A stretch of 48,622 nt of DNA, from sequence record PV615260; one strand, given 5' to 3'. The DNA comes from Shigella phage vB_Shig_1KOFFS. The notes below the pieces were generated by a model. The model worked only from the letters and a program-made list of their open reading frames with translations. It searched no databases and was not told the origin of the DNA. The position numbers and the translations under genes were made by a program. Positions 19 through 47,399 of the stretch are shown piece by piece. The first letter of the stretch is position 1. Each line of letters opens with the position of its first letter.

Positions 19-92
19 ACAGCACTAATTGCTAAATAATGCCCGCCGCGAGCGGGTATTATTACCCCATCAACCAATCAGGAGCTAACGCC
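19..92 (+). promoter_or_regulatory. Conserved promoter-like cassette (copy 1): CAGCAC-N5-TGCTAAA box, 22-bp GC hairpin spacer, TATTAT
   Basis: Dyad-like box followed by hairpin gcccgccgcgagcggg, -10-like TATTAT, then RBS GGAG and ATG at 93. Confidence 0.5.
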
Positions 93-329
93 ATGAACAC
101 CAAAACCATTGCAGACACCATCAAGATTGTACCAGCAAAAGCGCAAGTAGTATCGCGCCACCTGGTTAACCTTTCTCGCCTGTGCATGGCCGACTACATG
201 GCGAACCCTTCAGAGAATGGCCTTGATGGTGTAGTCGGTGAGATTTATTTTCGCGCAGGTTACGGCCTGGAAAGTGTGGCCATGTATGAGCAAATGGCCG
301 AAGGTTTTTGCATTTACGGTGACGAATGA
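93..329 (+). CDS. hypothetical protein (78 aa)
   Basis: ORF with ATG at 93 preceded by GGAG; the ORF-track start at 39 lies inside the upstream regulatory cassette. Confidence 0.55.
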   Translation: MNTKTIADTIKIVPAKAQVVSRHLVNLSRLCMADYMANPSENGLDGVVGEIYFRAGYGLESVAMYEQMAEGFCIYGDE

Positions 330-577
330 TGATTGTCGAGACTGGTCGCGCTGCCGTATGGCAGCACGCTAAAGAAGCAGGAATAAGTGATGATATCGTG
401 AAGATCGCAAAGTATTTCGATATAAAGGATATCTCCATCGTGTTCGGCGGGAAGTTTACTTACCTCCACGAGCGCCCGGTGAAGCGCACGCGAATAGCAG
501 TGGCAACGCGAGCGGAGGCGGACGCGCTGAAGATGTTCATCCACGAGTCGAAGCAGCAGAAGAAATATTACAAGTAG
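326..577 (+). CDS. hypothetical protein (83 aa)
   Basis: ORF whose ATG overlaps the upstream stop (ATGA coupling). Confidence 0.5.
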   Translation: MMIVETGRAAVWQHAKEAGISDDIVKIAKYFDIKDISIVFGGKFTYLHERPVKRTRIAVATRAEADALKMFIHESKQQKKYYK

Positions 578-672: not shown

Positions 673-1803
673 ATGTCACCTAAAATCACAGACGAAGAAT
701 TCCTGGCCGCCCGCGAAGAAGGTAAAACATACCGCGAGATCGCGGAAGAGTTCGGCATGAACATTCGAAGCGTTGAACGTCGCGGCGTTCGCCTGGCGCG
801 ACAAGGACACCTACACGGAAACGCCCACGTTGCGAAGCATATCCCGGACGGCTTCGGCGTCAAAGGCACGTCGACGATGATTCGCGCGGACGGCTCCGAG
901 GTCGTTCGGTGGGTCAAGTCGGAAGTAGACCGCGATCGCATGGTCGCGCTTATGGAGGCAGCGCAGGCGGCTTTCTGCGAAGACCTTCCGCGAGCCGAAC
1001 CGCAACCGCTGGATGAATCGAAGTTCTACATTGAAGATCAGCTTGCCCTGTACCCGATCTTCGACTTGCATATTGGGGCAATGGCGCATAAGCATGAATG
1101 CGGCGAGAACTATGATACCAGCACGGCAGAGAAGGTTCTAAACCGCTTCTTTGATTATTCCGTTTCGGTTGCTCCGCAATCACAAAAGGCGGTTTTGTTG
1201 GTCGGCGGTGACTTCCTTCACAGTGACGGCCTGGACGCAGTAACCCCGGCAAGCGGTCACGTTCTCGATCAGGACAGCCGATACGCAAAACTTGTTTATG
1301 TTGCCATTCGTTCGCTGCGTCGCGCCGTTTCGCTACTGCTTAACAATCATGCAGAAGTTGAAGTGCAGGTGATTGAAGGCAACCACGACCAGGCCGGGAT
1401 GATCTGGCTACGCGCAGCGCTGGCGGCGTTCTATGAGAATGAACCGCGCGTTTTCGTTGATGTTAGTCCGGCGATCCTGCATCGCACCTTGTGGGGCAAA
1501 ACCATGCTGGGATATACTCATGGCCACACGATGAAAAAGCCGGAAACGCGCCTTGCTGCGATGGCTACCGACTTCCGTAAGGAGTTCGGCCAGTGCGACT
1601 ACATTTACACGCATTCCGGCCACTGGCATCACCAGACTGTAACGGAACACTCGTTAGGCATTGACGAAGTGCATGGCCAGTTGGGCGCAAAAGATGCCTA
1701 CGCAGCACGCGGCGGATGGCGATCATATCGGCAGGCTGCGGTGATTCTGTACAGCAAAGAATATGGCGAAGTAGGTCGCTTTATCTATCGCCCGAACATG
1801 TAA
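673..1803 (+). CDS. Calcineurin-like metallophosphoesterase with N-terminal helix-turn-helix domain
   Basis: Phosphoesterase motifs DLHIG, GGDFLHSDG and GNHD in order; N-terminal segment TYREIAEEFGMNIRSVERR resembles a sigma region-4 type HTH. Confidence 0.6.
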   Translation: MSPKITDEEFLAAREEGKTYREIAEEFGMNIRSVERRGVRLARQGHLHGNAHVAKHIPDGFGVKGTSTMIRADGSEVVRWVKSEVDRDRMVALMEAAQAAFCEDLPRAEPQPLDESKFYIEDQLALYPIFDLHIGAMAHKHECGENYDTSTAEKVLNRFFDYSVSVAPQSQKAVLLVGGDFLHSDGLDAVTPASGHVLDQDSRYAKLVYVAIRSLRRAVSLLLNNHAEVEVQVIEGNHDQAGMIWLRAALAAFYENEPRVFVDVSPAILHRTLWGKTMLGYTHGHTMKKPETRLAAMATDFRKEFGQCDYIYTHSGHWHHQTVTEHSLGIDEVHGQLGAKDAYAARGGWRSYRQAAVILYSKEYGEVGRFIYRPNM

Positions 1804-1841
1804 CCACAACGGCCCCGCGAGGGGCCAACAAGGAAAAACCG

Positions 1842-2330
1842 ATGAATAGAAATATCTGCATTTTCGATCTCGATGGCACGCTTTCAGACGGAACCCACCG
1901 CTTGCACCTGCTGCCGAAAAAAGATCTCCACCTTACAGAAAGTTGGAGCGAATTTAATGGCGCGTCAATTGGAGACAGCCCAATCCAAAGCACTATTGAC
2001 GTGGCGAATGCGCTTTATCGATCCGGAATGACCGTTATCATCCTGACTGGCCGATCCGATGAGGTGAAGACCGAAACAATGATTTGGCTTGACCGCTACG
2101 GGGTGAAATATGACAGCCTAATCATGCGCCGCGCCATCGATAACCGTAAAGACACGGTAATCAAGGAGGAGGAGTTACGCAAAATCGGGCTTGATCGCAT
2201 TGTTGCGGCATGGGATGATTCACCAAATGTTATTGCGCACTTTCGCGGCCTGGGTATTACGACTTACCAGGTCTGCGACTACGGCGACAATCTTCAGGAT
2301 CATTTAAAATCTCACGGAGTAGACAAATGA
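1842..2330 (+). CDS. HAD-superfamily phosphatase (possible 5-prime deoxynucleotidase)
   Basis: N-terminal FDLDGTL (DxDxT) motif; ATG at 1842 preceded by AAGGA. Confidence 0.6.
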   Translation: MNRNICIFDLDGTLSDGTHRLHLLPKKDLHLTESWSEFNGASIGDSPIQSTIDVANALYRSGMTVIILTGRSDEVKTETMIWLDRYGVKYDSLIMRRAIDNRKDTVIKEEELRKIGLDRIVAAWDDSPNVIAHFRGLGITTYQVCDYGDNLQDHLKSHGVDK

Positions 2331-2908
2331 AAAATGTAATTATCCTCAACGGAGCGCCGGGCATCGGAAAGGACACTATCGCGGAAATCATCTCGCGGAA
2401 GTGGCAATACAAGAACCTTAGCTTCAAACAGCCGATGTTTGCCATTGCTCGTGCTGTGCTGGGATCGGCTGATTTTGCACGCTTTACTGCCCGATACCAC
2501 GACCGCAAGCACAAAGAAGTGAAATGCGATTTTTTGGGCGACCGTTCTCCGCGTGAATTCATGATTCACATTAGCGAAAATTTCGTCAAGCCGACCCTGG
2601 GCAAAAATCAGTTCGGCAAGTTGCTTTGCGATTCAGCGCTAACCTCGCCGTTTAACTGCATCGTCAGCGACGGCGGATTCGATGAGGAGGTGGAGCACGT
2701 CGCAGCGCATGAGGCGCTTAACGTGTTTGTCGTCCGCCTTCATCGTGACGGCATGACATTTGAGGGTGATAGCCGCAAGCATATTCGACGCCAGGATCTG
2801 ATTTGCGACACTTACCATGAACTCGATTTTGATATGACCACTGGCGAGCCGGAAGACGACGCGCAAAAAATCCTTGATATGGTGTCAGATGTTGCATTAA
2901 AATTATAA
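2327..2908 (+). CDS. P-loop kinase, dNMP kinase-like
   Basis: Walker A GAPGIGKDT at N-terminus; overall pattern resembles T4 gp1 dNMP kinase from memory; start overlaps upstream stop. Confidence 0.55.
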   Translation: MKNVIILNGAPGIGKDTIAEIISRKWQYKNLSFKQPMFAIARAVLGSADFARFTARYHDRKHKEVKCDFLGDRSPREFMIHISENFVKPTLGKNQFGKLLCDSALTSPFNCIVSDGGFDEEVEHVAAHEALNVFVVRLHRDGMTFEGDSRKHIRRQDLICDTYHELDFDMTTGEPEDDAQKILDMVSDVALKL

Positions 2909-2942: not shown

Positions 2943-2970
2943 GGGAACCTTGATGGGTTCCCTTTTTTTT
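2943..2970 (+). terminator. Rho-independent terminator
   Basis: Stem GGGAACC / GGTTCCC with loop ttgat, followed by T8. Confidence 0.75.
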
Positions 2971-3034
2971 GTTCTTAATTTGGCCTAATGCATATATCAT
3001 CACCTTACCATTTAACTAACAGAGGTTGCATATC

Positions 3035-4690: not shown

Positions 4691-6259
4691 TTACCTCATG
4701 AACGACGGGTTGATAAAGACTTCGGAATCCATCACGCAGATAAAGCCTAATTCCTCCATCTTCGGCAATAAGCGTTCCTTAATCTTTTTGCTCACCCCAG
4801 CCTGGCCTTTGAAGATCTTCAGGTTGCGGCAGGCGTTATAAATGCCCTGGACGGTCATAACACCTTTTGCCTGCTTGCAACGACTGGCGATAACGTCATA
4901 CAGCGCTTTAATTTCCGCGCCCTCACCAGCAAATCCGGAAGAGTCAGCAGATGACAGGTAAGTTTTGCTCAACTCATGGAACATGATGATCGCTTCGTCA
5001 ATGGTTGCCGTGTCGATCTTCTTCGAACGCTTACCGCCGGGTTGCCAGTTCCGGATCGTGTGGATTACCGACGCCAGACGCATAACCTGCTTATCAAACT
5101 TACCCATCGCGCCGCGAAGCATAGTATGCGAATACTTGCCGCCGTCACCTAACTCAGGTTCTAATTCCTGGCGGGCCTTATTCAGTCTCCGCATTGCCGC
5201 GTCAGTAACCTGCAACTTAATGTTCGACTCGCTCATAATGTCATGAATCAGCCGGAAGTAATCCGCCTTCAGTGACTGGTCGATCGGCTCATAGGTCGAA
5301 TTCCCGTTTTCGTCGATGAACACGCGTTCGCCCAAACGTGTTTGCTCACGAACCAAAAGGAAACGCTCCGAGACACCGATCCCGCGAGAACCCGCTTGCA
5401 TGATGGCGTCGATGGTTTCATCCTGGGCAATTACGCAAATGCAGCCCAAAGCAACGAATGACATATTATTGCTAACGTCGGCACGAGCGATCGACACGTG
5501 GCCTTTATCCCATGCTTTGAGCACCAGTTCGCTGTTCGTCTTCTTGCCGCCATCGTTGCCATACGTGATCCCCAAAAGGCTGTTAACCGCAGTTGCCTCA
5601 TCGGAAATAACGGCAAAGTTTCCCTGGCGGTTGTTAATCTTCGCCAGACCTTCCGGGGTGGTATCGGATACCGGGAAAGTTAGGTCACACAATTTTTCAA
5701 GTTTCTCTTCCAGTTCGTCACGATCTTCGAAAAGTTTCACCATATCAGATTGCGACAACTCCCCTTTAAGCGCCTGCTTGTTGGCGGACAACTTCGCCAT
5801 GATTTTCTTACGCTCCTTCTTGCGCGACTCGTTAATGCGCTCGACTTCGGCCACGATCGGATCGATGGCCAGCGAGTTAATGGCAGACTTACCAGCGGAA
5901 GGCGGCTGCGACGTGATAACGTAAAGCGTCGTCGGTTGCTCACTGCCGTGATACTCGACCCAAAAGCGACCCATCATCGCGGCGGATACGGTTCCGAGAA
6001 AGTGCATGTAAGCGGATGATTCCGGGAACTGAACAGATCTGGCGGCATTGAGCGCCAGCTTGCCGACCACATCGTAATCATTGGCGATCGAGATTGTTGG
6101 GTATTTATCCGCGTTTACGTCGATATCTTTGGGCTTTGGCCAGAATGAAACGGAGTCACGATACCCGTTCGCACGAATCGCAACGCGCAGAGGACTGATC
6201 CCCTCCCTTTCTGCGATGGCGATAATATCTTGCGGTGATACGCGGTCATTTAAAAACAT
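4691..6259 (-). CDS. Large P-loop NTPase-like protein of unknown function (522 aa)
   Basis: Walker A-like PPSAGKS and Walker B-like AVISDEAT; RBS CAGGAGCAAGGG before ATG at 6259. Confidence 0.55.
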   Translation of the reverse strand: MFLNDRVSPQDIIAIAEREGISPLRVAIRANGYRDSVSFWPKPKDIDVNADKYPTISIANDYDVVGKLALNAARSVQFPESSAYMHFLGTVSAAMMGRFWVEYHGSEQPTTLYVITSQPPSAGKSAINSLAIDPIVAEVERINESRKKERKKIMAKLSANKQALKGELSQSDMVKLFEDRDELEEKLEKLCDLTFPVSDTTPEGLAKINNRQGNFAVISDEATAVNSLLGITYGNDGGKKTNSELVLKAWDKGHVSIARADVSNNMSFVALGCICVIAQDETIDAIMQAGSRGIGVSERFLLVREQTRLGERVFIDENGNSTYEPIDQSLKADYFRLIHDIMSESNIKLQVTDAAMRRLNKARQELEPELGDGGKYSHTMLRGAMGKFDKQVMRLASVIHTIRNWQPGGKRSKKIDTATIDEAIIMFHELSKTYLSSADSSGFAGEGAEIKALYDVIASRCKQAKGVMTVQGIYNACRNLKIFKGQAGVSKKIKERLLPKMEELGFICVMDSEVFINPSFMR

Positions 6260-7205: not shown

Positions 7206-7280
7206 TTTGGTTTTCTCCGTTGCGTTTCTATGGGGTAATGCTACCCGACTTTCGCCGGGTAGTTTTAGCAATTCGTGCTA
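7206..7280 (-). promoter_or_regulatory. Conserved promoter-like cassette (copy on - strand)
   Basis: Reverse complement reads TAGCACGAATTGCTAAAAC, then hairpin tacccggcgaaagtcgggta, then CCCCATAGAAAC, RBS and ATG; the TAG is the stop of the upstream gene. Confidence 0.5.
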
Positions 7281-8193: not shown

Positions 8194-8265
8194 TTGTGTA
8201 GCTCCTTCGTTTGTTGGTGTGGGACAGTATGCCACTATCCAGCCATGTTGTTTTAGCAAAACGTG

Positions 8266-8643
8266 CTATGCCGGAACGCAGGTCGCGTAATCTTGGCTGA
8301 TGTAGATCGTGCGCTGAACGCGAGGTTCGAGATCTCCGAGTTCCTGGATGGTAACATCGTTGCTTCCTACCCGGCACGGAACCGATCCAAAGATAAACTC
8401 GCTAGTCTGCTTGTCGTTGATTTGCCATACATTACCGCCTTCCTTTTTGACAACCAGGAAAGGCGCACTGTCTGCACTGAACTCTTCCGGGCCACGACCG
8501 TAGTAATGCGTGATCGCAGCTTTGGCCGCAGCGCTGAAGGCATCGGTAACGTCATTGGTCGCCTTGTCGCGGATGGCCTTGATACGTTCTTCAGGCGATC
8601 CGATGATGTAGGAAAAGCTGTTCGAAATGGTAACTGTTCGCAT
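8266..8643 (-). CDS. hypothetical protein (125 aa)
   Basis: ORF with RBS GAGGT before ATG at 8643. Confidence 0.5.
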   Translation of the reverse strand: MRTVTISNSFSYIIGSPEERIKAIRDKATNDVTDAFSAAAKAAITHYYGRGPEEFSADSAPFLVVKKEGGNVWQINDKQTSEFIFGSVPCRVGSNDVTIQELGDLEPRVQRTIYISQDYATCVPA

Positions 8644-9073: not shown

Positions 9074-9148
9074 GGTTAATCTCCTGACTGGTTTCGATGG
9101 GGTAACTATACCAGGCCTTTCGGCCCGGCGTTTAGCAATTCGTGCTTA
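9074..9148 (-). promoter_or_regulatory. Conserved promoter-like cassette (copy on - strand)
   Basis: Reverse complement reads TAAGCACGAATTGCTAAACG, hairpin ccgggccgaaaggcctgg, extended -10-like TGGTATAGT, then CCCCATCGAAAC. Confidence 0.5.
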
Positions 9149-10090: not shown

Positions 10091-10669
10091 ATGCAATACA
10101 AAGGCTATGAGTTCGAAGAAGTCGATGTGTCCGAGTGGATGCAGTACGACGCAGAAAAGCAGGCCGCGTACCATGAATGGCTGCAATCCATCACGTTTGG
10201 TGACACCACCAGGCCAGCAGGGCGGAGCCAGGAAGCCACTAAACCTGAAGGCACATTCACTGGCAACCGCTCTTCCGAGATCCGGCGCATGTTCCTGGAT
10301 GGCGGGCGGCGTATCCAGATGACGGCGGAGGAGTTCGCGGAGAAGTTCGGCGTTCATCCGGTCGACAACCATTTCCGCAGGCCGTTGCTGAAACTCCTGG
10401 AGCCGGGCGAGGTGTTGCGCGTGAGCCTGGGGGCGGGGTTAATCTCCGTCTTTACCGAGTTCGACGCAATGACTAGCTCAAACCTGGAGGTTGAGGCATA
10501 CAGGCGGCAGGGCGCTACCTCTGAGCGGGAAAGGATTAAGGGTTTAGTGGCCGCTCTTGCCGTAGACTTTGCCGGGGATGCTCTGGCCGGGATTTACAAG
10601 GCGAACTTGTTCGCGGCTATCGATCTTGGGTTGACCGCCAGCGATATCAGCCAGCACGGCAAGCAATAG
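10091..10669 (+). CDS. hypothetical early protein (192 aa)
   Basis: ATG at 10091 preceded by GGGGGA; ORF-track extension to 10028 would overlap the promoter. Confidence 0.55.
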   Translation: MQYKGYEFEEVDVSEWMQYDAEKQAAYHEWLQSITFGDTTRPAGRSQEATKPEGTFTGNRSSEIRRMFLDGGRRIQMTAEEFAEKFGVHPVDNHFRRPLLKLLEPGEVLRVSLGAGLISVFTEFDAMTSSNLEVEAYRRQGATSERERIKGLVAALAVDFAGDALAGIYKANLFAAIDLGLTASDISQHGKQ

Positions 10670-10741
10670 CACTTTTTGTTAAAACGCGATCGGGGTGGCT
10701 TGCTATAGTAACCCCATCGAAACGAACAACGGAGCACCACA
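10667..10741 (+). promoter_or_regulatory. Conserved promoter-like cassette
   Basis: TAGCACTTTTTGTTAAAAC, hairpin GGGGTggcttgctatagtaACCCC containing TGcTATAGT, then CCCCATCGAAAC and RBS GGAG. Confidence 0.55.
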
Positions 10742-11236
10742 ATGAAATCTCGCGAATACCTAAACACCCTTAATGGCCTTATCTACTGGCTGGAAGATGA
10801 CGCAGTGATGATGCGCAAGCGCGAAGGCAATATTGTGAAGAAGTCGAATATGGCAGCGGCGATCTTCTTTGCGATGGTCGGCAACGATACACTTCTGCTT
10901 GTCGAGGCGGAGCCGGAGCAAAAGAGCATGACCATGAACGAATTCTCTAACTTCCTGGCTGGCATCGACAAGAGCACCACGACTGCAACCGCACAGACGG
11001 CCATTCAGGGCGGAGCCACCCACATTGCCATCGACGGTAACGGCGACGTCTTCGCATTCAAGATGCGCCCGCGCCCCTGCCTGCCGGATGACGACGACGC
11101 GAATGACTACCTGGGCGAATGGCTTCGCGGGTCTGAGCAGTACGGCCACATTGCGCGAACAGTCTGCTTCCTTGGCAACACTGGCCGCGAGCACCGCAAC
11201 TGGCTGGAACTCTGCTTCCAGATCCCACAGCAATAG
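10742..11236 (+). CDS. hypothetical early protein (164 aa)
   Basis: ORF downstream of cassette; contains an acidic DDDDAND stretch. Confidence 0.55.
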   Translation: MKSREYLNTLNGLIYWLEDDAVMMRKREGNIVKKSNMAAAIFFAMVGNDTLLLVEAEPEQKSMTMNEFSNFLAGIDKSTTTATAQTAIQGGATHIAIDGNGDVFAFKMRPRPCLPDDDDANDYLGEWLRGSEQYGHIARTVCFLGNTGREHRNWLELCFQIPQQ

Positions 11237-11304
11237 CACTTTTTGCTAAAACACGATCGGGGTAACGCGGTATTATTACCCCATCGAAACAGAGGAGCAA
11301 AAAC
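11234..11304 (+). promoter_or_regulatory. Conserved promoter-like cassette
   Basis: TAGCACTTTTTGCTAAAAC, hairpin GGGGTAAcgcggtatTATTACCCC, CCCCATCGAAAC, RBS GAGGAG. Confidence 0.55.
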
Positions 11305-11527: not shown

Positions 11528-11848
11528 ATGATTCACGAAGTTAAATCCGGCGAGCAAGTAGTGGCCACCATCACGCAGCGCCACGTTGTAGCCTTCCAGA
11601 TTAACATCCCTGGCACGTTCGATATGCAGTCGCTTGACGTGCCAGTTTGGGCCAACACGGTTGCCATTGATGCCGACGGCTCGATTTGGGCCTATGAGTC
11701 GACCGTTGAAAATGTTCGCCTGCTGAGTTACTCGCCTGATTCATGGGTGGATAAGGGGCCGGGCGGAAACAAAATGGTTCAGGTGGGCGAAATGGCTCGT
11801 TTCCCTGATTGGGCAAAATCGAAGATTGACCTTCGCGGCCTGAAATAG
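11528..11848 (+). CDS. hypothetical early protein (106 aa)
   Basis: ATG at 11528 preceded by GGAG. Confidence 0.5.
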   Translation: MIHEVKSGEQVVATITQRHVVAFQINIPGTFDMQSLDVPVWANTVAIDADGSIWAYESTVENVRLLSYSPDSWVDKGPGGNKMVQVGEMARFPDWAKSKIDLRGLK

Positions 11849-11934
11849 CACGCATTGCTAAACGCCAGGTCAGTGGATCGGGCATAATTATCACGAAGTC
11901 GATTAACGACCAAATTATGCAAGGAGACAGGATA
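11845..11934 (+). promoter_or_regulatory. Conserved promoter-like cassette
   Basis: TAGCACGCATTGCTAAAC, 22 bp, CATAAT, then RBS AGGAG before ATG 11935. Confidence 0.5.
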
Positions 11935-12386: not shown

Positions 12387-12459
12387 ATAGCACTTTTTGC
12401 TAAACGCCCGGTCAGGAGATCGGGCATAATGGCCATACACCAAACAACGGAGATTAACC
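12387..12459 (+). promoter_or_regulatory. Conserved promoter-like cassette
   Basis: TAGCACTTTTTGCTAAAC directly after stop TGA, 22 bp, CATAAT, RBS GGAG. Confidence 0.5.
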
Positions 12460-13330: not shown

Positions 13331-13512
13331 AAGTAAGCAAAAAGAAACTCGCGCTGTATTGGGCCTTCTTCTTGGTTGGCCTGGCGCTGCATGATAATGT
13401 AGACTGGCATCCGGTCGGCATGATTTGCATCATCATCGGGTTATGCCGACTGTCAGAGATTGACGGGTTCCGCCGTGGATATAGGGCAGCGTTCAGCGGC
13501 GAAAAAAAATAG
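13327..13512 (+). CDS. small membrane protein (61 aa)
   Basis: Two hydrophobic segments (LALYWAFFLVGLAL and VGMICIIIGL). Confidence 0.45.
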   Translation: MKVSKKKLALYWAFFLVGLALHDNVDWHPVGMICIIIGLCRLSEIDGFRRGYRAAFSGEKK

Positions 13513-13591
13513 CACTTTTTGTTAAAACTGCCGTAACGTCATTTGATAAAGTGGCGTTACTGAAGTGAACAATCCAATCAGGAGCAACGCA
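13510..13591 (+). promoter_or_regulatory. Conserved promoter-like cassette (variant hairpin)
   Basis: TAGCACTTTTTGTTAAAAC, hairpin CGTAACG..CGTTAC, TGATAAAGT, RBS AGGAG. Confidence 0.45.
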
Positions 13592-14298: not shown

Positions 14299-14373
14299 TA
14301 GCACGAATTGCTAAAACGAACGTCCGGGGATGGTGCATACTATCCCCACACCAACGAACAAAGGAACTCACAC
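14299..14373 (+). promoter_or_regulatory. Conserved promoter-like cassette
   Basis: TAGCACGAATTGCTAAAAC, hairpin GGGGAtggtgcatactATCCCC, RBS AAGGAA. Confidence 0.5.
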
Positions 14374-15269: not shown

Positions 15270-15343
15270 TAGCACGAATTGCTAAAACCGATCAGGGGTA
15301 AGCTGGTATAGTTACCCCATCGAAACGAAACGGAGTTACAGCA
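15270..15343 (+). promoter_or_regulatory. Conserved promoter-like cassette
   Basis: TAGCACGAATTGCTAAAAC, hairpin GGGGTAAgctggtatagTTACCCC with TGgTATAGT, CCCCATCGAAAC, RBS GGAG. Confidence 0.55.
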
Positions 15344-44295: not shown

Positions 44296-44373
44296 TAGCA
44301 CTTTTTGTTAAACATGATAAAATATGCTATGTATTATACACGCAACCATGCTAATGACAAATTAGGATTGCAC
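44296..44373 (+). promoter_or_regulatory. Conserved promoter-like cassette
   Basis: TAGCACTTTTTGTTAAAC followed about 22 bp later by TATTAT, with an extended -10-like TGATAAAAT nearer the box. Confidence 0.45.
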
Positions 44374-46922: not shown

Positions 46923-47326
46923 TTACAGATAAAGGGGATTACCTCGAATATTACGGCGGGCCTGTAAAGGCTTGCCCGCTTGAGAAAATCGACCAGATGA
47001 ACAGCGTTTCGTGGCTGCGGCATGAATATCCTGATTATCTGTTTTGGCATACGGTTAACGAAGGGAGCAAGCACAAAGCGAGCGCGGTTATCGATCATCA
47101 AATGGGGTTGCTGAAGGGTGTTAGCGACATTCTGATCCTGATTGGGTTCGGTGGCAAATACCCGTTCGCAGCCATTGAGCTAAAGCGCCAGGGTAAGGCG
47201 CAGGCGTCGCCAGTGAGCAAGGAGCAAAGGGAATTCCTTGCTGCCGTCCGGCGTCGCGGCGGATTCGCCGCCGTGGCCTATGGCTTCGAGCAATTCAAGA
47301 TCGCTTTCTGCGATGCCATAAAATAG
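46919..47326 (+). CDS. VRR-NUC domain nuclease
   Basis: PD-(D/E)xK-like segments GVSDILIL and AIELK; GTG start after RBS GAGGAG overlapping helicase stop. Confidence 0.55.
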   Translation: MITDKGDYLEYYGGPVKACPLEKIDQMNSVSWLRHEYPDYLFWHTVNEGSKHKASAVIDHQMGLLKGVSDILILIGFGGKYPFAAIELKRQGKAQASPVSKEQREFLAAVRRRGGFAAVAYGFEQFKIAFCDAIK

Positions 47327-47399
47327 CACTTTTTGTTAAAACCGCCCGGCGAAAGCCGGGTATCATTTCCACATCGAAACAAAGAACGGAGTGTTGAAA
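47324..47399 (+). promoter_or_regulatory. Conserved promoter-like cassette
   Basis: TAGCACTTTTTGTTAAAAC, hairpin CCCGGCgaaaGCCGGG, TATCAT, CATCGAAAC, RBS GGAG. Confidence 0.5.

What the first reader, a model, noticed from the sequence alone, without database searches (positions are those of the whole stretch)
673..1803. Metallophosphoesterase fused to an N-terminal sigma region-4-like HTH
A calcineurin-like motif set (DLH, GDFLHSDG, GNHD) follows an N-terminal DNA-binding-type helix-turn-helix. Fusion of a phosphoesterase to an HTH is unusual and could be a DNA-targeted nuclease or phosphatase, or a regulator using the cassette promoters.
Basis: partly seen in the sequence, partly recalled or inferred. 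Interest (0 to 1): 0.45.

Follow-up and report, generated by a model that had tools for sequence, protein, structure and literature searches.

The report
Known phage HTH-metallophosphoesterase, probable DNA nuclease
The gene is real and does join a DNA-binding helix-turn-helix to an intact metallophosphoesterase, but it is the ordinary, already annotated "DNA repair exonuclease/phosphoesterase" found in nearly all T1-like phages and about 4% of sequenced phages, and its biochemical function has not been tested.

Summary

The "unusual fusion" claim fails. This architecture is the norm for a large phage family: PHROG 704, at least 4634 clusters at 50% identity, and 2038 of 50,697 phage records. 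KP36's own GenBank entry already notes the sigma-r4 hit.

The most likely function is a Rad50-independent nuclease or end-cleaning phosphodiesterase tethered to DNA, working in phage replication, recombination and repair. In unrelated phages the gene sits among replication or recombination genes. It is linked to a PNKP-type 3'-phosphatase plus P-loop kinase in two lineages, and to a DNA ligase in a third.

The idea that it regulates the TAGCA-N5-TGCTA "cassette promoters" is not supported. The dyad array is confined to Drexlerviridae and co-occurs with a dedicated small regulator. Homologs at 60% identity occur in phages that lack the array. Function remains inferred, not shown.

The parts
673..1803 (+). 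HTH-metallophosphoesterase gene (376 aa plus stop); ortholog of KP36 gp63 / T1p16
   Evidence: ORF list and sequence. 97-100% identical loci in Webervirus genomes. PHROG 704 at E 8e-155.
685..807 (+). N-terminal three-helix HTH (residues 5-45), sigma-70 region 4 / LuxR-GerE type. The Pfam match covers residues 8-37 (nt 694-783).
   Evidence: Pfam PF08281 26.6 bits against a cut-off of 25.7. Helices 7-15, 20-27 and 31-43 with pLDDT about 95. Family profile matches GerE at E 0.0084.
844..984 (+). Conserved beta-hairpin plus helix (residues 58-104; G74 and W80 nearly invariant). It is kept even in homologs that lack the HTH.
   Evidence: Strands 61-70 and 76-85, helix 87-102. Conservation. A hairpin HMM hits 341 of 389 family proteins. 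HTH-less homologs start here.
979..1029 (+). Variable linker (residues 103-119) between the N-terminal module and the catalytic core, with no predicted secondary structure
   Evidence: The pLDDT block average dips to 60-72, there is no secondary structure, and the length varies in the alignments.
1030..1800 (+). Metallophosphoesterase catalytic core (residues 120-376) with no Mre11/SbcD-type capping domain
1063..1071 (+). MPE motif I, D131-L-H133
   Evidence: D131 invariant, H133 at least 90% conserved in 139 representatives
1204..1230 (+). MPE motif II, G178-G-D180-F-L-H183-S-D185-G (GDxxH as in Mre11), followed by a conserved loop predicted with low confidence up to R203
   Evidence: D180 invariant; H183 and D185 at least 90% conserved; loop 186-199 has pLDDT below 50
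1378..1389 (+). MPE motif III, G236-N237-H238-D239
   Evidence: N237 and H238 invariant
1519..1527 (+). MPE motif IV, H283-G-H285
   Evidence: H283 invariant
1618..1632 (+). MPE motif V, G316-H317-W-H319-H320
   Evidence: H319 invariant; G316 and H317 at least 90% conserved
20..62 (+). Promoter-like composite element that appears to serve the operon: a one-mismatch dyad CAGCACTAATTGCTA (20-34), a 22-nt spacer, then TATTAT (57-62)
   Evidence: A dyad lies 170-900 bp upstream of the gene in the other Drexlerviridae loci.
93..577 (+). Two small upstream genes, apparently in the same operon (93-329, PHROG 9631; 326-577, PHROG 2817), function unknown. The second is syntenic with the MPE gene across Drexlerviridae.
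1842..2330 (+). HAD-family polynucleotide 3'-phosphatase (PNKP phosphatase domain), a separate gene
   Evidence: Pfam HAD_PNKP 66.3 bits. PDB Pnkp1 E 4e-7 and T4 Pnkp E 0.007. PHROG 415.
2327..2908 (+). P-loop kinase (annotated dNMP kinase); its start overlaps the phosphatase stop codon
   Evidence: PHROG 139 at E 2.9e-48. Only generic P-loop hits in Pfam, NCBIfam and PDB.
2943..2972 (+). Terminator-like site (8-bp stem plus T-run) at the end of the apparent operon, before the lysis cassette
   Evidence: Annotated as a terminator in KP36.

Best explanation
The gene encodes a catalytically competent binuclear metallophosphoesterase carrying its own DNA-binding module. The module is a sigma-4/LuxR-type HTH followed by a conserved beta-hairpin and helix, joined to the core by a variable linker.

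The most likely mode of action is as follows. The HTH module holds the enzyme on DNA. The MPE core then hydrolyses DNA phosphodiester bonds with a divalent metal (probably Mn2+), acting as an exo- or endonuclease or as a 3'-end-cleaning phosphodiesterase at ends, nicks, flaps or hairpins. It would serve the phage's replication, recombination and repair programme alongside RecE, Erf, SSB, VRR-NUC and the helicases. In effect it would work like Mre11/SbcD or like Pseudomonas putida MPE, but without a Rad50/SbcC partner, with the HTH supplying DNA affinity. In Webervirus and Kagunavirus the adjacent PNKP-type 3'-phosphatase and P-loop kinase would convert any 3'-PO4/5'-OH ends into ligatable ends.

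Shown here: an intact ORF, an HTH, a full and conserved MPE motif set and predicted fold, the family's distribution, and its gene neighbourhoods.

Inferred: DNA as the substrate, nuclease chemistry, the role in DNA processing, and cooperation with the neighbouring enzymes.
For: - The active site is complete. Motifs I-V are invariant or nearly so in 139 representatives at 30-66% identity and in 118 further relatives.
- Motif II reads GDFLH and motif III reads GNHD. That Mre11 uses GDLFH and GNHD is my own knowledge.
- The DNA-binding HTH is retained in at least 114 of 138 diverse representatives, and 79 of 118 relatives hit HTH_1.
- The gene lies in DNA-metabolism contexts in unrelated backbones:
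  - after helicase, VRR-NUC and Dam in KP36;
  - between replication protein O and a DnaB-type helicase in lambdoid mEp013;
  - in a nin-like region with NinG and HNH in a Paraburkholderia prophage;
  - as an HTH-less homolog in the same gene run as RusA and immediately after a DNA ligase in Campylobacter phage PC14.
- It is linked to a PNKP-type 3'-phosphatase plus kinase in Webervirus, and as a three-gene island with overlapping start and stop codons inside the tail genes of Kagunavirus K1G.
- P. putida MPE shows that an MPE acting on its own can be a Mn-dependent ssDNA endonuclease yielding both 3'-OH and 3'-PO4 ends (PMC7826289).
- It is a persistent core gene in 508 of 522 Drexlerviridae (PMC13164509).
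Against: - No biochemical or genetic data were found for any member.
- Structural similarity does not favour nucleases. MJ0936 (a phosphodiesterase of unknown substrate), LpxH and other non-nuclease MPEs score as high as SbcD/Mre11.
- Sequence similarity to SbcD/Mre11 is not significant.
- There is no capping domain and no Rad50/SbcC gene in the genome.
- Gene neighbourhoods are heterogeneous. In several phages the gene simply lies at the junction of early and late genes, next to lysis or terminase genes.
- The phosphatase and kinase are absent from most T1-like phages, so they are accessories rather than obligate partners.
- An HTH can also serve transcriptional autoregulation rather than substrate targeting.
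Confidence: 0.5

Rival explanations
1. Host-DNA degradation and nucleotide salvage. The HTH-MPE degrades host DNA to mononucleotides, and the neighbouring phosphatase and dNMP kinase feed them into phage DNA synthesis. This would resemble T4 gp46/47 plus gp1 (the T4 comparison is my own knowledge).
For: The downstream kinase best matches the PHROG 'deoxynucleoside monophosphate kinase' (E 2.9e-48). PMC13164509 also reads the kinase genes as enhancing nucleotide supply. These phages have no polymerase of their own and are virulent. That T1 degrades host DNA is from my own memory of older literature and was not verified here.
Against: The family is equally at home in temperate phages and prophages (mEp013, Paraburkholderia), where wholesale host DNA destruction is not expected. 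Most T1-like phages lack the kinase and phosphatase. The phosphatase is of the polynucleotide 3'-phosphatase type, not a nucleotidase type.
Confidence: 0.15
2. RNA or DNA end-healing phosphoesterase. The MPE domain acts as a 2',3'-cyclic phosphodiesterase or 3'-phosphatase, like the MPE domain of bacterial Pnkp. Together with the HAD 3'-phosphatase and the kinase it would repair nucleic acids cut by host defence ribonucleases or nucleases.
For: The MPE, PNKP-type phosphatase and P-loop kinase recur as a trio in two unrelated phage backbones. The HAD protein matches the RNA-repair Pnkp1 (E 4e-7) and T4 Pnkp. A PNK-related fragment lies directly upstream of the gene in L079. A DNA ligase neighbours the gene in Campylobacter phage PC14.
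Against: There is no ligase in the Webervirus genome. The trio is missing in most members of the family. A sequence-type HTH is unnecessary for tRNA repair. An MPE phosphatase would be redundant with the HAD phosphatase next to it.
Confidence: 0.12
3. Bifunctional transcription factor. The HTH binds the TAGCA-N5-TGCTA dyad centred about 42 nt upstream of the -10-like boxes of the early and DNA-metabolism promoters (including its own operon) and switches them on or off. The MPE domain would be a sensor or a second activity.
For: The dyad is highly non-random: 7 exact copies against 0.01 expected, and 14 with one mismatch against about 1 expected. It lies at a fixed 22 nt from a -10-like hexamer in 13 gene-proximal sites, one of them upstream of the MPE operon. 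It is conserved in all Drexlerviridae loci. In Drexlerviridae, R32, E35 and R37 in the recognition helix are invariant. A 10-bp half-site spacing suits a dimeric HTH (my own knowledge).
Against: mEp013-like phages (protein 60% identical, N-terminal 113 residues 44-50%) and Guernseyvirinae carry the gene without any dyad array. Among the sampled loci the array co-occurs with a dedicated regulator (gp55, PHROG 2856) wherever the locus flank reaches far enough, and a dyad lies 8-45 nt from that gene's start. These look like the phage's early promoters, which must fire before any phage protein is made (inference). All catalytic residues are under strict conservation, which is not expected for a mere sensor domain.
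Confidence: 0.07
4. An enzyme that does not act on nucleic acids: a protein phosphatase like lambda NinI, or a phosphodiesterase that destroys signalling nucleotides (anti-defence). The HTH would be used only for autoregulation.
Confidence: 0.08

Closest known systems
PHROG 704 'DNA repair exonuclease' / KP36 gp63 / T1p16 (Drexlerviridae 'phosphoesterase')
   Same: Same protein family. Full-length match at E 8e-155. 97-100% identical in Webervirus genomes. Same position upstream of the lysis cassette. KP36's record already lists the Sigma70_r4_2 hit.
   Different: Nothing material. The name is a homology-based annotation, and no activity has been demonstrated.
Mre11 / SbcD (and T4 gp47) nucleases
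   Different: No capping domain. No Rad50/SbcC/gp46 partner gene. Sequence similarity is not significant. It carries its own N-terminal HTH and hairpin module instead.
Pseudomonas putida MPE (Lhr-associated Mn-dependent ssDNA endonuclease; PMC7826289)
   Same: An MPE nuclease that works on its own, without a Rad50 partner, and is encoded among repair genes. It produces 3'-PO4 as well as 3'-OH ends, which would explain a neighbouring 3'-phosphatase and kinase.
Sigma-70 region 4 / LuxR-GerE HTH domains
   Same: Three-helix HTH with the pattern G-(I/M)-x-x-x-(S/T)-V-x-x-R. Pfam PF08281 scores above its cut-off. The family profile matches GerE, RhlR, DesR and sigma-H region 4.
   Different: No sigma regions 2 or 3 and no receiver or ligand domain, so it is not a sigma factor or a response regulator. 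In relatives the best Pfam label shifts to the LysR-type HTH_1 or HTH_50, so only the generic HTH class is secure.
Lambda NinI (PP-lambda) Ser/Thr phosphatase
   Same: A phage MPE encoded in the nin/early-right region. Some family members occupy a similar position before a Q-like gene.

Membership tests
Calcineurin-like metallophosphoesterase superfamily | Motifs I-V (DxH, GD, GNH[DE], H, GHxH) that supply the binuclear metal ligands | tested here: met
   D131/H133, D180, N237/H238, H283 and H317/H319 are present and invariant or at least 90% conserved in 139 diverse representatives
Calcineurin-like metallophosphoesterase superfamily | Alpha/beta sandwich MPE fold | tested here: met
Calcineurin-like metallophosphoesterase superfamily | Match to Pfam Metallophos or Metallophos_2 above the gathering score | tested here: not met
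   No hit at E up to 1 for this protein. Only 6 and 2 of 118 relatives reach E below 0.01. This is a divergent clade.
Calcineurin-like metallophosphoesterase superfamily | Metal-dependent phosphoester hydrolysis | not testable with these tools
   Needs an enzyme assay
Mre11/SbcD nuclease family | C-terminal capping domain after the MPE core | tested here: not met
Mre11/SbcD nuclease family | Partner Rad50/SbcC/gp46 ATPase gene | tested here: not met
   None is annotated anywhere in the 97%-identical KP36 genome
Mre11/SbcD nuclease family | Significant sequence relationship | tested here: not met
   Best profile match E 0.077 over motifs I-II only
Sigma-70 region 4 (PF08281) HTH | Profile match above the gathering cut-off and a three-helix HTH | tested here: met
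   26.6 bits against 25.7. Helices with pLDDT about 95. Related GerE/LuxR matches.
Sigma factor | Presence of sigma region 2 (and 3) | tested here: not met
   No such Pfam or NCBIfam match. TIGR02937 scores 12.9 bits against a cut-off of 42.9. The rest of the protein is an MPE.
PHROG 704 (phage 'DNA repair exonuclease') | Full-length profile match | tested here: met
   E 8.3e-155, residues 4-376 on profile positions 3-388 of 390
PPP-family protein phosphatases (lambda NinI type) | Signatures GDxHG, GDxVDRG and GNHE | tested here: not met
Regulator of the TAGCA-N5-TGCTA dyad promoters | Co-occurrence of the protein with the dyad array across phages | tested here: not met
   The array is present in all sampled Drexlerviridae loci. 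It is absent from mEp013-like loci (protein 60% identical) and from Guernseyvirinae loci that encode the protein. Among the sampled loci it co-occurs with the gp55-like regulator instead.
Regulator of the TAGCA-N5-TGCTA dyad promoters | Specific binding of the HTH to the dyad | not testable with these tools
   Needs EMSA, DAP-seq or a protein-DNA structure prediction

The most novel reading that the evidence does not exclude
The HTH-MPE is a sequence-directed metallophosphoesterase endonuclease. Its sigma-4/LuxR-type HTH would read a specific phage DNA site, such as the conserved dyad or an origin- or pac-like site, and the MPE core would cut or process DNA there. This could initiate recombination-dependent replication or couple DNA processing to promoter control. 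No site-specific nuclease of the MPE superfamily has been characterised, as far as I know.
Probability: 0.1. Interest if true: 0.6.

Novelty: already known. Interest (0 to 1): 0.2.

Why it matters
As a sequence feature it is ordinary. It is a well-populated, already annotated phage family, and the sigma-r4 hit is recorded in a 2013-era GenBank entry. Its residual value is that a persistent gene of Drexlerviridae, also present in roughly 4% of sequenced phages including temperate lambdoid ones, still has no demonstrated activity. Showing what it cuts, and whether the HTH gives it site or structure specificity, would fill a gap in T1-like phage DNA metabolism. It would also define a Rad50-independent branch of MPE nucleases.

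Tried and rejected
- Pfam and NCBIfam gave no significant MPE model hit on this protein, so the assignment had to rest on motifs and predicted fold.
- The afdb50 fold library was unavailable. BFVD returned only phage proteins with generic names such as 'calcineurin-like phosphoesterase' or 'DNA polymerase II small subunit'.
- Alignment A2 was too diverse for locus retrieval and too large for a member-wise Pfam scan.
- Literature searches for functional data led nowhere. They returned only genome descriptions and one comparative paper.
- Membership in Mre11/SbcD was rejected: no capping domain, no partner gene, no significant sequence relationship.
- A PPP-phosphatase (NinI-like) reading was rejected on motifs.
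- I considered reading the dyad TAGCAC-N4-TTGCTA as a sigma-54 promoter. I rejected it because the spacing between the GG/GC-equivalent positions is 8 nt rather than the required 10 nt, and the first G is an A (sequence; the consensus is my own knowledge).
- Reading TTGCTA as an ordinary -35 hexamer was rejected because the spacer to the -10-like box is a fixed 22 nt.
- An apparent tandem duplication of the beta-hairpin motif in long-N-terminus homologs was not confirmed by an HMM search.
- A one-mismatch dyad upstream of the ant-MPE operon in mEp013-like phages lacks the composite architecture and is consistent with chance.

Full report
**What the window is.** The first 3 kb match about 400 phage genomes, best at 97-98% identity to Klebsiella phages of the genus Webervirus (KP36, KLPN1 and others; Drexlerviridae, the T1-like phages). 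In KP36 the ORF corresponds to gp63. The gene and both of its domains are therefore already in the public record.

**Checking the observation.** ORF 673-1803 (+) is one uninterrupted frame of 376 aa.
- Pfam places residues 8-37 in Sigma70_r4_2 at 26.6 bits, just above the 25.7-bit gathering score (E 4.7e-6). Weaker HTH_23 and HTH_28 hits cover the same stretch.
- No Pfam Metallophos hit appears.
- PHROGs matches the whole protein to phrog_704 'DNA repair exonuclease' (E 8e-155) and the core to phrog_284 'exonuclease'.
- An exhaustive search of 1.84 billion cluster representatives finds 4634 clusters at 50% identity with E up to 1e-3. Nearly all are 370-420 aa and aligned from near the N-terminus.
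- In an alignment of 139 such representatives (30-66% identity), D131, D180, N237, H238, H283 and H319 are invariant. H133, H317, H183, D185, G74 and W80 are at least 90% conserved.

This is the pattern of a catalytically active binuclear metallophosphoesterase, not a decayed domain.

**Structure.** A first AlphaFold2 model from 26 close homologs was mediocre (pLDDT 69). A second model from 118 sequences reached pLDDT 83.9. It shows:
- three N-terminal helices (7-15, 20-27, 31-43; pLDDT about 95);
- a conserved beta-hairpin (61-70, 76-85) and helix (87-102);
- a variable linker without predicted secondary structure (103-119);
- an alpha/beta core (120-376), with three low-confidence loops at 138-146, 186-199 and 342-350 that carry conserved residues.

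**Is the fusion unusual? No.**
- An HTH profile built from one set of relatives detects a homologous N-terminal HTH in 114 of 138 independent diverse representatives.
- tblastn finds the family in 2038 of 50,697 phage records. These include Drexlerviridae, Guernseyvirinae (Jerseyvirus, Kagunavirus K1G), the temperate lambdoid phage mEp013, Vibrio, Campylobacter, Flavobacterium and roseobacter phages. Annotations range from 'DNA repair exonuclease' to 'sigma70-r4-2 domain-containing protein'.
- A 2026 comparative paper finds the module exonuclease-holin-endolysin-spanin in 508 of 522 Drexlerviridae, with the gene families in it classed as persistent (PMC13164509).

**Surroundings.** In the window the gene appears to be third in an operon, although transcription was not tested here.
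- The operon is preceded by a promoter-like element (20-62).
- Two small genes of unknown function follow (93-329, 326-577).
- Next come the HTH-MPE gene and a GC hairpin (1810-1827).
- After these come a HAD protein of the PNKP 3'-phosphatase type (1842-2330; Pfam HAD_PNKP 66 bits; PDB Pnkp1 E 4e-7, T4 Pnkp E 0.007) and an overlapping P-loop kinase (2327-2908; PHROG 'dNMP kinase').
- A terminator-like site lies at 2943-2972, and the lysis cassette follows.
- KP36 encodes RecE, Erf, SSB, primase, an SNF2-type helicase, VRR-NUC, Dam and a second helicase. It encodes no polymerase, no ligase and no Rad50/SbcC-like protein.

**Comparative contexts.**
- Most other T1-like phages lack the phosphatase and kinase, and the MPE gene is followed directly by the lysis genes.
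- The same trio of MPE, phosphatase and kinase, with overlapping stop and start codons, recurs in Kagunavirus at only 41% MPE identity. In K1G it forms a small plus-strand island in the middle of the minus-strand tail genes.
- In lambdoid mEp013-like phages a 60%-identical homolog lies between replication protein O and a DnaB-type helicase.
- In a Paraburkholderia prophage the gene lies after a nin-like region (NinG, HNH) and before the terminase. In another group it precedes a Q-like antiterminator. In others it lies between lysis and terminase genes.
- In Campylobacter phage PC14 an HTH-less homolog directly follows a DNA ligase, in the same gene run as a RusA resolvase.

The common thread is the early, DNA-metabolism part of phage genomes. 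There is repeated but non-obligate linkage to end-healing and sealing enzymes.

**Most likely mechanism.** The data favour a DNA-tethered, metal-dependent nuclease or end-cleaning phosphodiesterase acting on phage DNA intermediates. It would work like Mre11/SbcD, but it is not a member of that family: it has no capping domain, no Rad50-type partner and no significant sequence relationship. The closest functional precedent is P. putida MPE, a stand-alone Mn-dependent ssDNA endonuclease from a repair operon that yields both 3'-OH and 3'-PO4 ends (PMC7826289). Such chemistry would explain why a 3'-phosphatase and a kinase are repeatedly parked next to this gene. I put this at about 0.5. The domain architecture, active-site integrity and contexts are shown. 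The DNA substrate, nuclease chemistry and cooperation with neighbours are inferred. The rivals are host-DNA degradation and nucleotide salvage (0.15), RNA/DNA end healing by the MPE itself (0.12), a non-nucleic-acid phosphatase or phosphodiesterase (0.08), and a dyad-binding transcription factor (0.07).

**The dyad hypothesis.** TAGCA-N5-TGCTA occurs 7 times exactly (0.01 expected) and 14 times with one mismatch (about 1 expected). Thirteen of the 14 sites share one oriented architecture: TAGCAC-N4-TTG(C/T)TA, a fixed 22-nt spacer beginning AAAC/AACG, a -10-like hexamer (TATAGT, TATTAT or CATAAT), a leader that often reads CCCCATCGAAAC, a GGAG ribosome-binding site and an ATG. These sites precede the small early genes (7.2-15.3 kb), the helicase operon (44.3 kb), another early operon (47.3 kb) and the MPE operon itself (position 20).

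The dyad centre falls near -42. The TTGCTA lies 5 bp too far upstream to serve as a normal -35 hexamer. The array is conserved in every Drexlerviridae locus examined. It is absent from mEp013-like loci (protein 60% identical, N-terminal 113 residues 44-50%) and from Guernseyvirinae loci that encode the HTH-MPE. It co-occurs with the small regulator gp55 (PHROG 2856) in every dyad-bearing locus whose flank reaches far enough, and a dyad lies 8-45 nt from that gene's start codon.

This comparison is confounded by phylogeny, so it weakens the link between the HTH-MPE and the dyad without excluding it. What can be said is that the MPE operon is preceded by a dyad element; nothing shows that the protein controls the dyad promoters.

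**Verdict.** The feature is an already known, widespread phage gene whose two-domain nature is on record. Its interest lies only in the fact that nobody appears to have tested what this very common enzyme does.

Noticed in passing
window 20-62, 7220-7280(-), 8208-8268(-), 9087-9147(-), 10667-10709, 11234-11276, 11846-11888, 12388-12430, 13510-13552, 14299-14341, 15270-15312, 44296-44338, 47324-47366: Thirteen copies of an oriented composite element: TAGCAC-N4-TTG(C/T)TA dyad, a fixed 22-nt spacer (often holding a small GC hairpin with compensatory changes), a -10-like hexamer, a CCCCATCGAAAC-type leader, GGAG and ATG. The copies lie only in front of early and DNA-metabolism genes. The TTGCTA lies 5 bp too far upstream for a normal -35 and the dyad centre is near -42, which suggests promoters that need a bound factor. 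The element is conserved across Drexlerviridae.
   Followed up: partly
L001 1769-2198 (KP36 gp55 and adjacent dyad); the corresponding dyad in the window is at 44296-44310: A 133-aa regulator (PHROG 2856) co-occurs with the dyad array in every dyad-bearing locus whose flank reaches it. A dyad sits 8-45 nt from its start codon, in the divergent helicase promoter region. It is a more parsimonious candidate dyad-binding protein than the HTH-MPE.
   Followed up: partly
window 1842-2908; L087 (phage K1G) 4016-6182; L077 7989-10170: The trio of HTH-MPE, PNKP-type HAD 3'-phosphatase and P-loop kinase recurs in Kagunavirus. There it forms an island with overlapping stop and start codons inserted among oppositely oriented tail genes. 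The phosphatase is more similar between lineages (57-59%) than the MPE (41%), which suggests a mobile accessory module.
   Followed up: partly
window 326-577: An 83-aa ORF (PHROG 2817, weak DUF7334 hit) lies upstream of the MPE gene in almost all Drexlerviridae loci (36-66% identity). It is a possible partner or co-regulated factor of unknown function.
   Followed up: no
window 1810-1827: A GC-rich hairpin (CGGCCCCGCGAGGGGCCA) lies in the 38-nt gap between the MPE stop codon and the phosphatase start. No T-run follows it on the + strand. It could be an intercistronic RNA stabiliser or attenuator.
   Followed up: no
L047 7965-9107; L083 (phage mEp013) 6025-7143: Temperate lambdoid phages and prophages carry a homolog 60% identical to the Webervirus protein, placed between replication protein O (plus an Ant-like gene) and a DnaB-type helicase. 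This points to gene exchange between virulent T1-like and temperate lambdoid phages.
   Followed up: partly
L085 (Campylobacter phage PC14) 2697-5954: An HTH-less homolog (about 317 aa, aligned from about residue 66) directly follows a DNA ligase, in the same gene run as a RusA-like resolvase. This is a repair and recombination context for the catalytic core alone.
   Followed up: no
window 4691-6259 (-): A 522-aa protein annotated 'DNA helicase' in KP36 (gp70) is encoded on the opposite strand just beyond the lysis cassette. It was not examined further.
   Followed up: no
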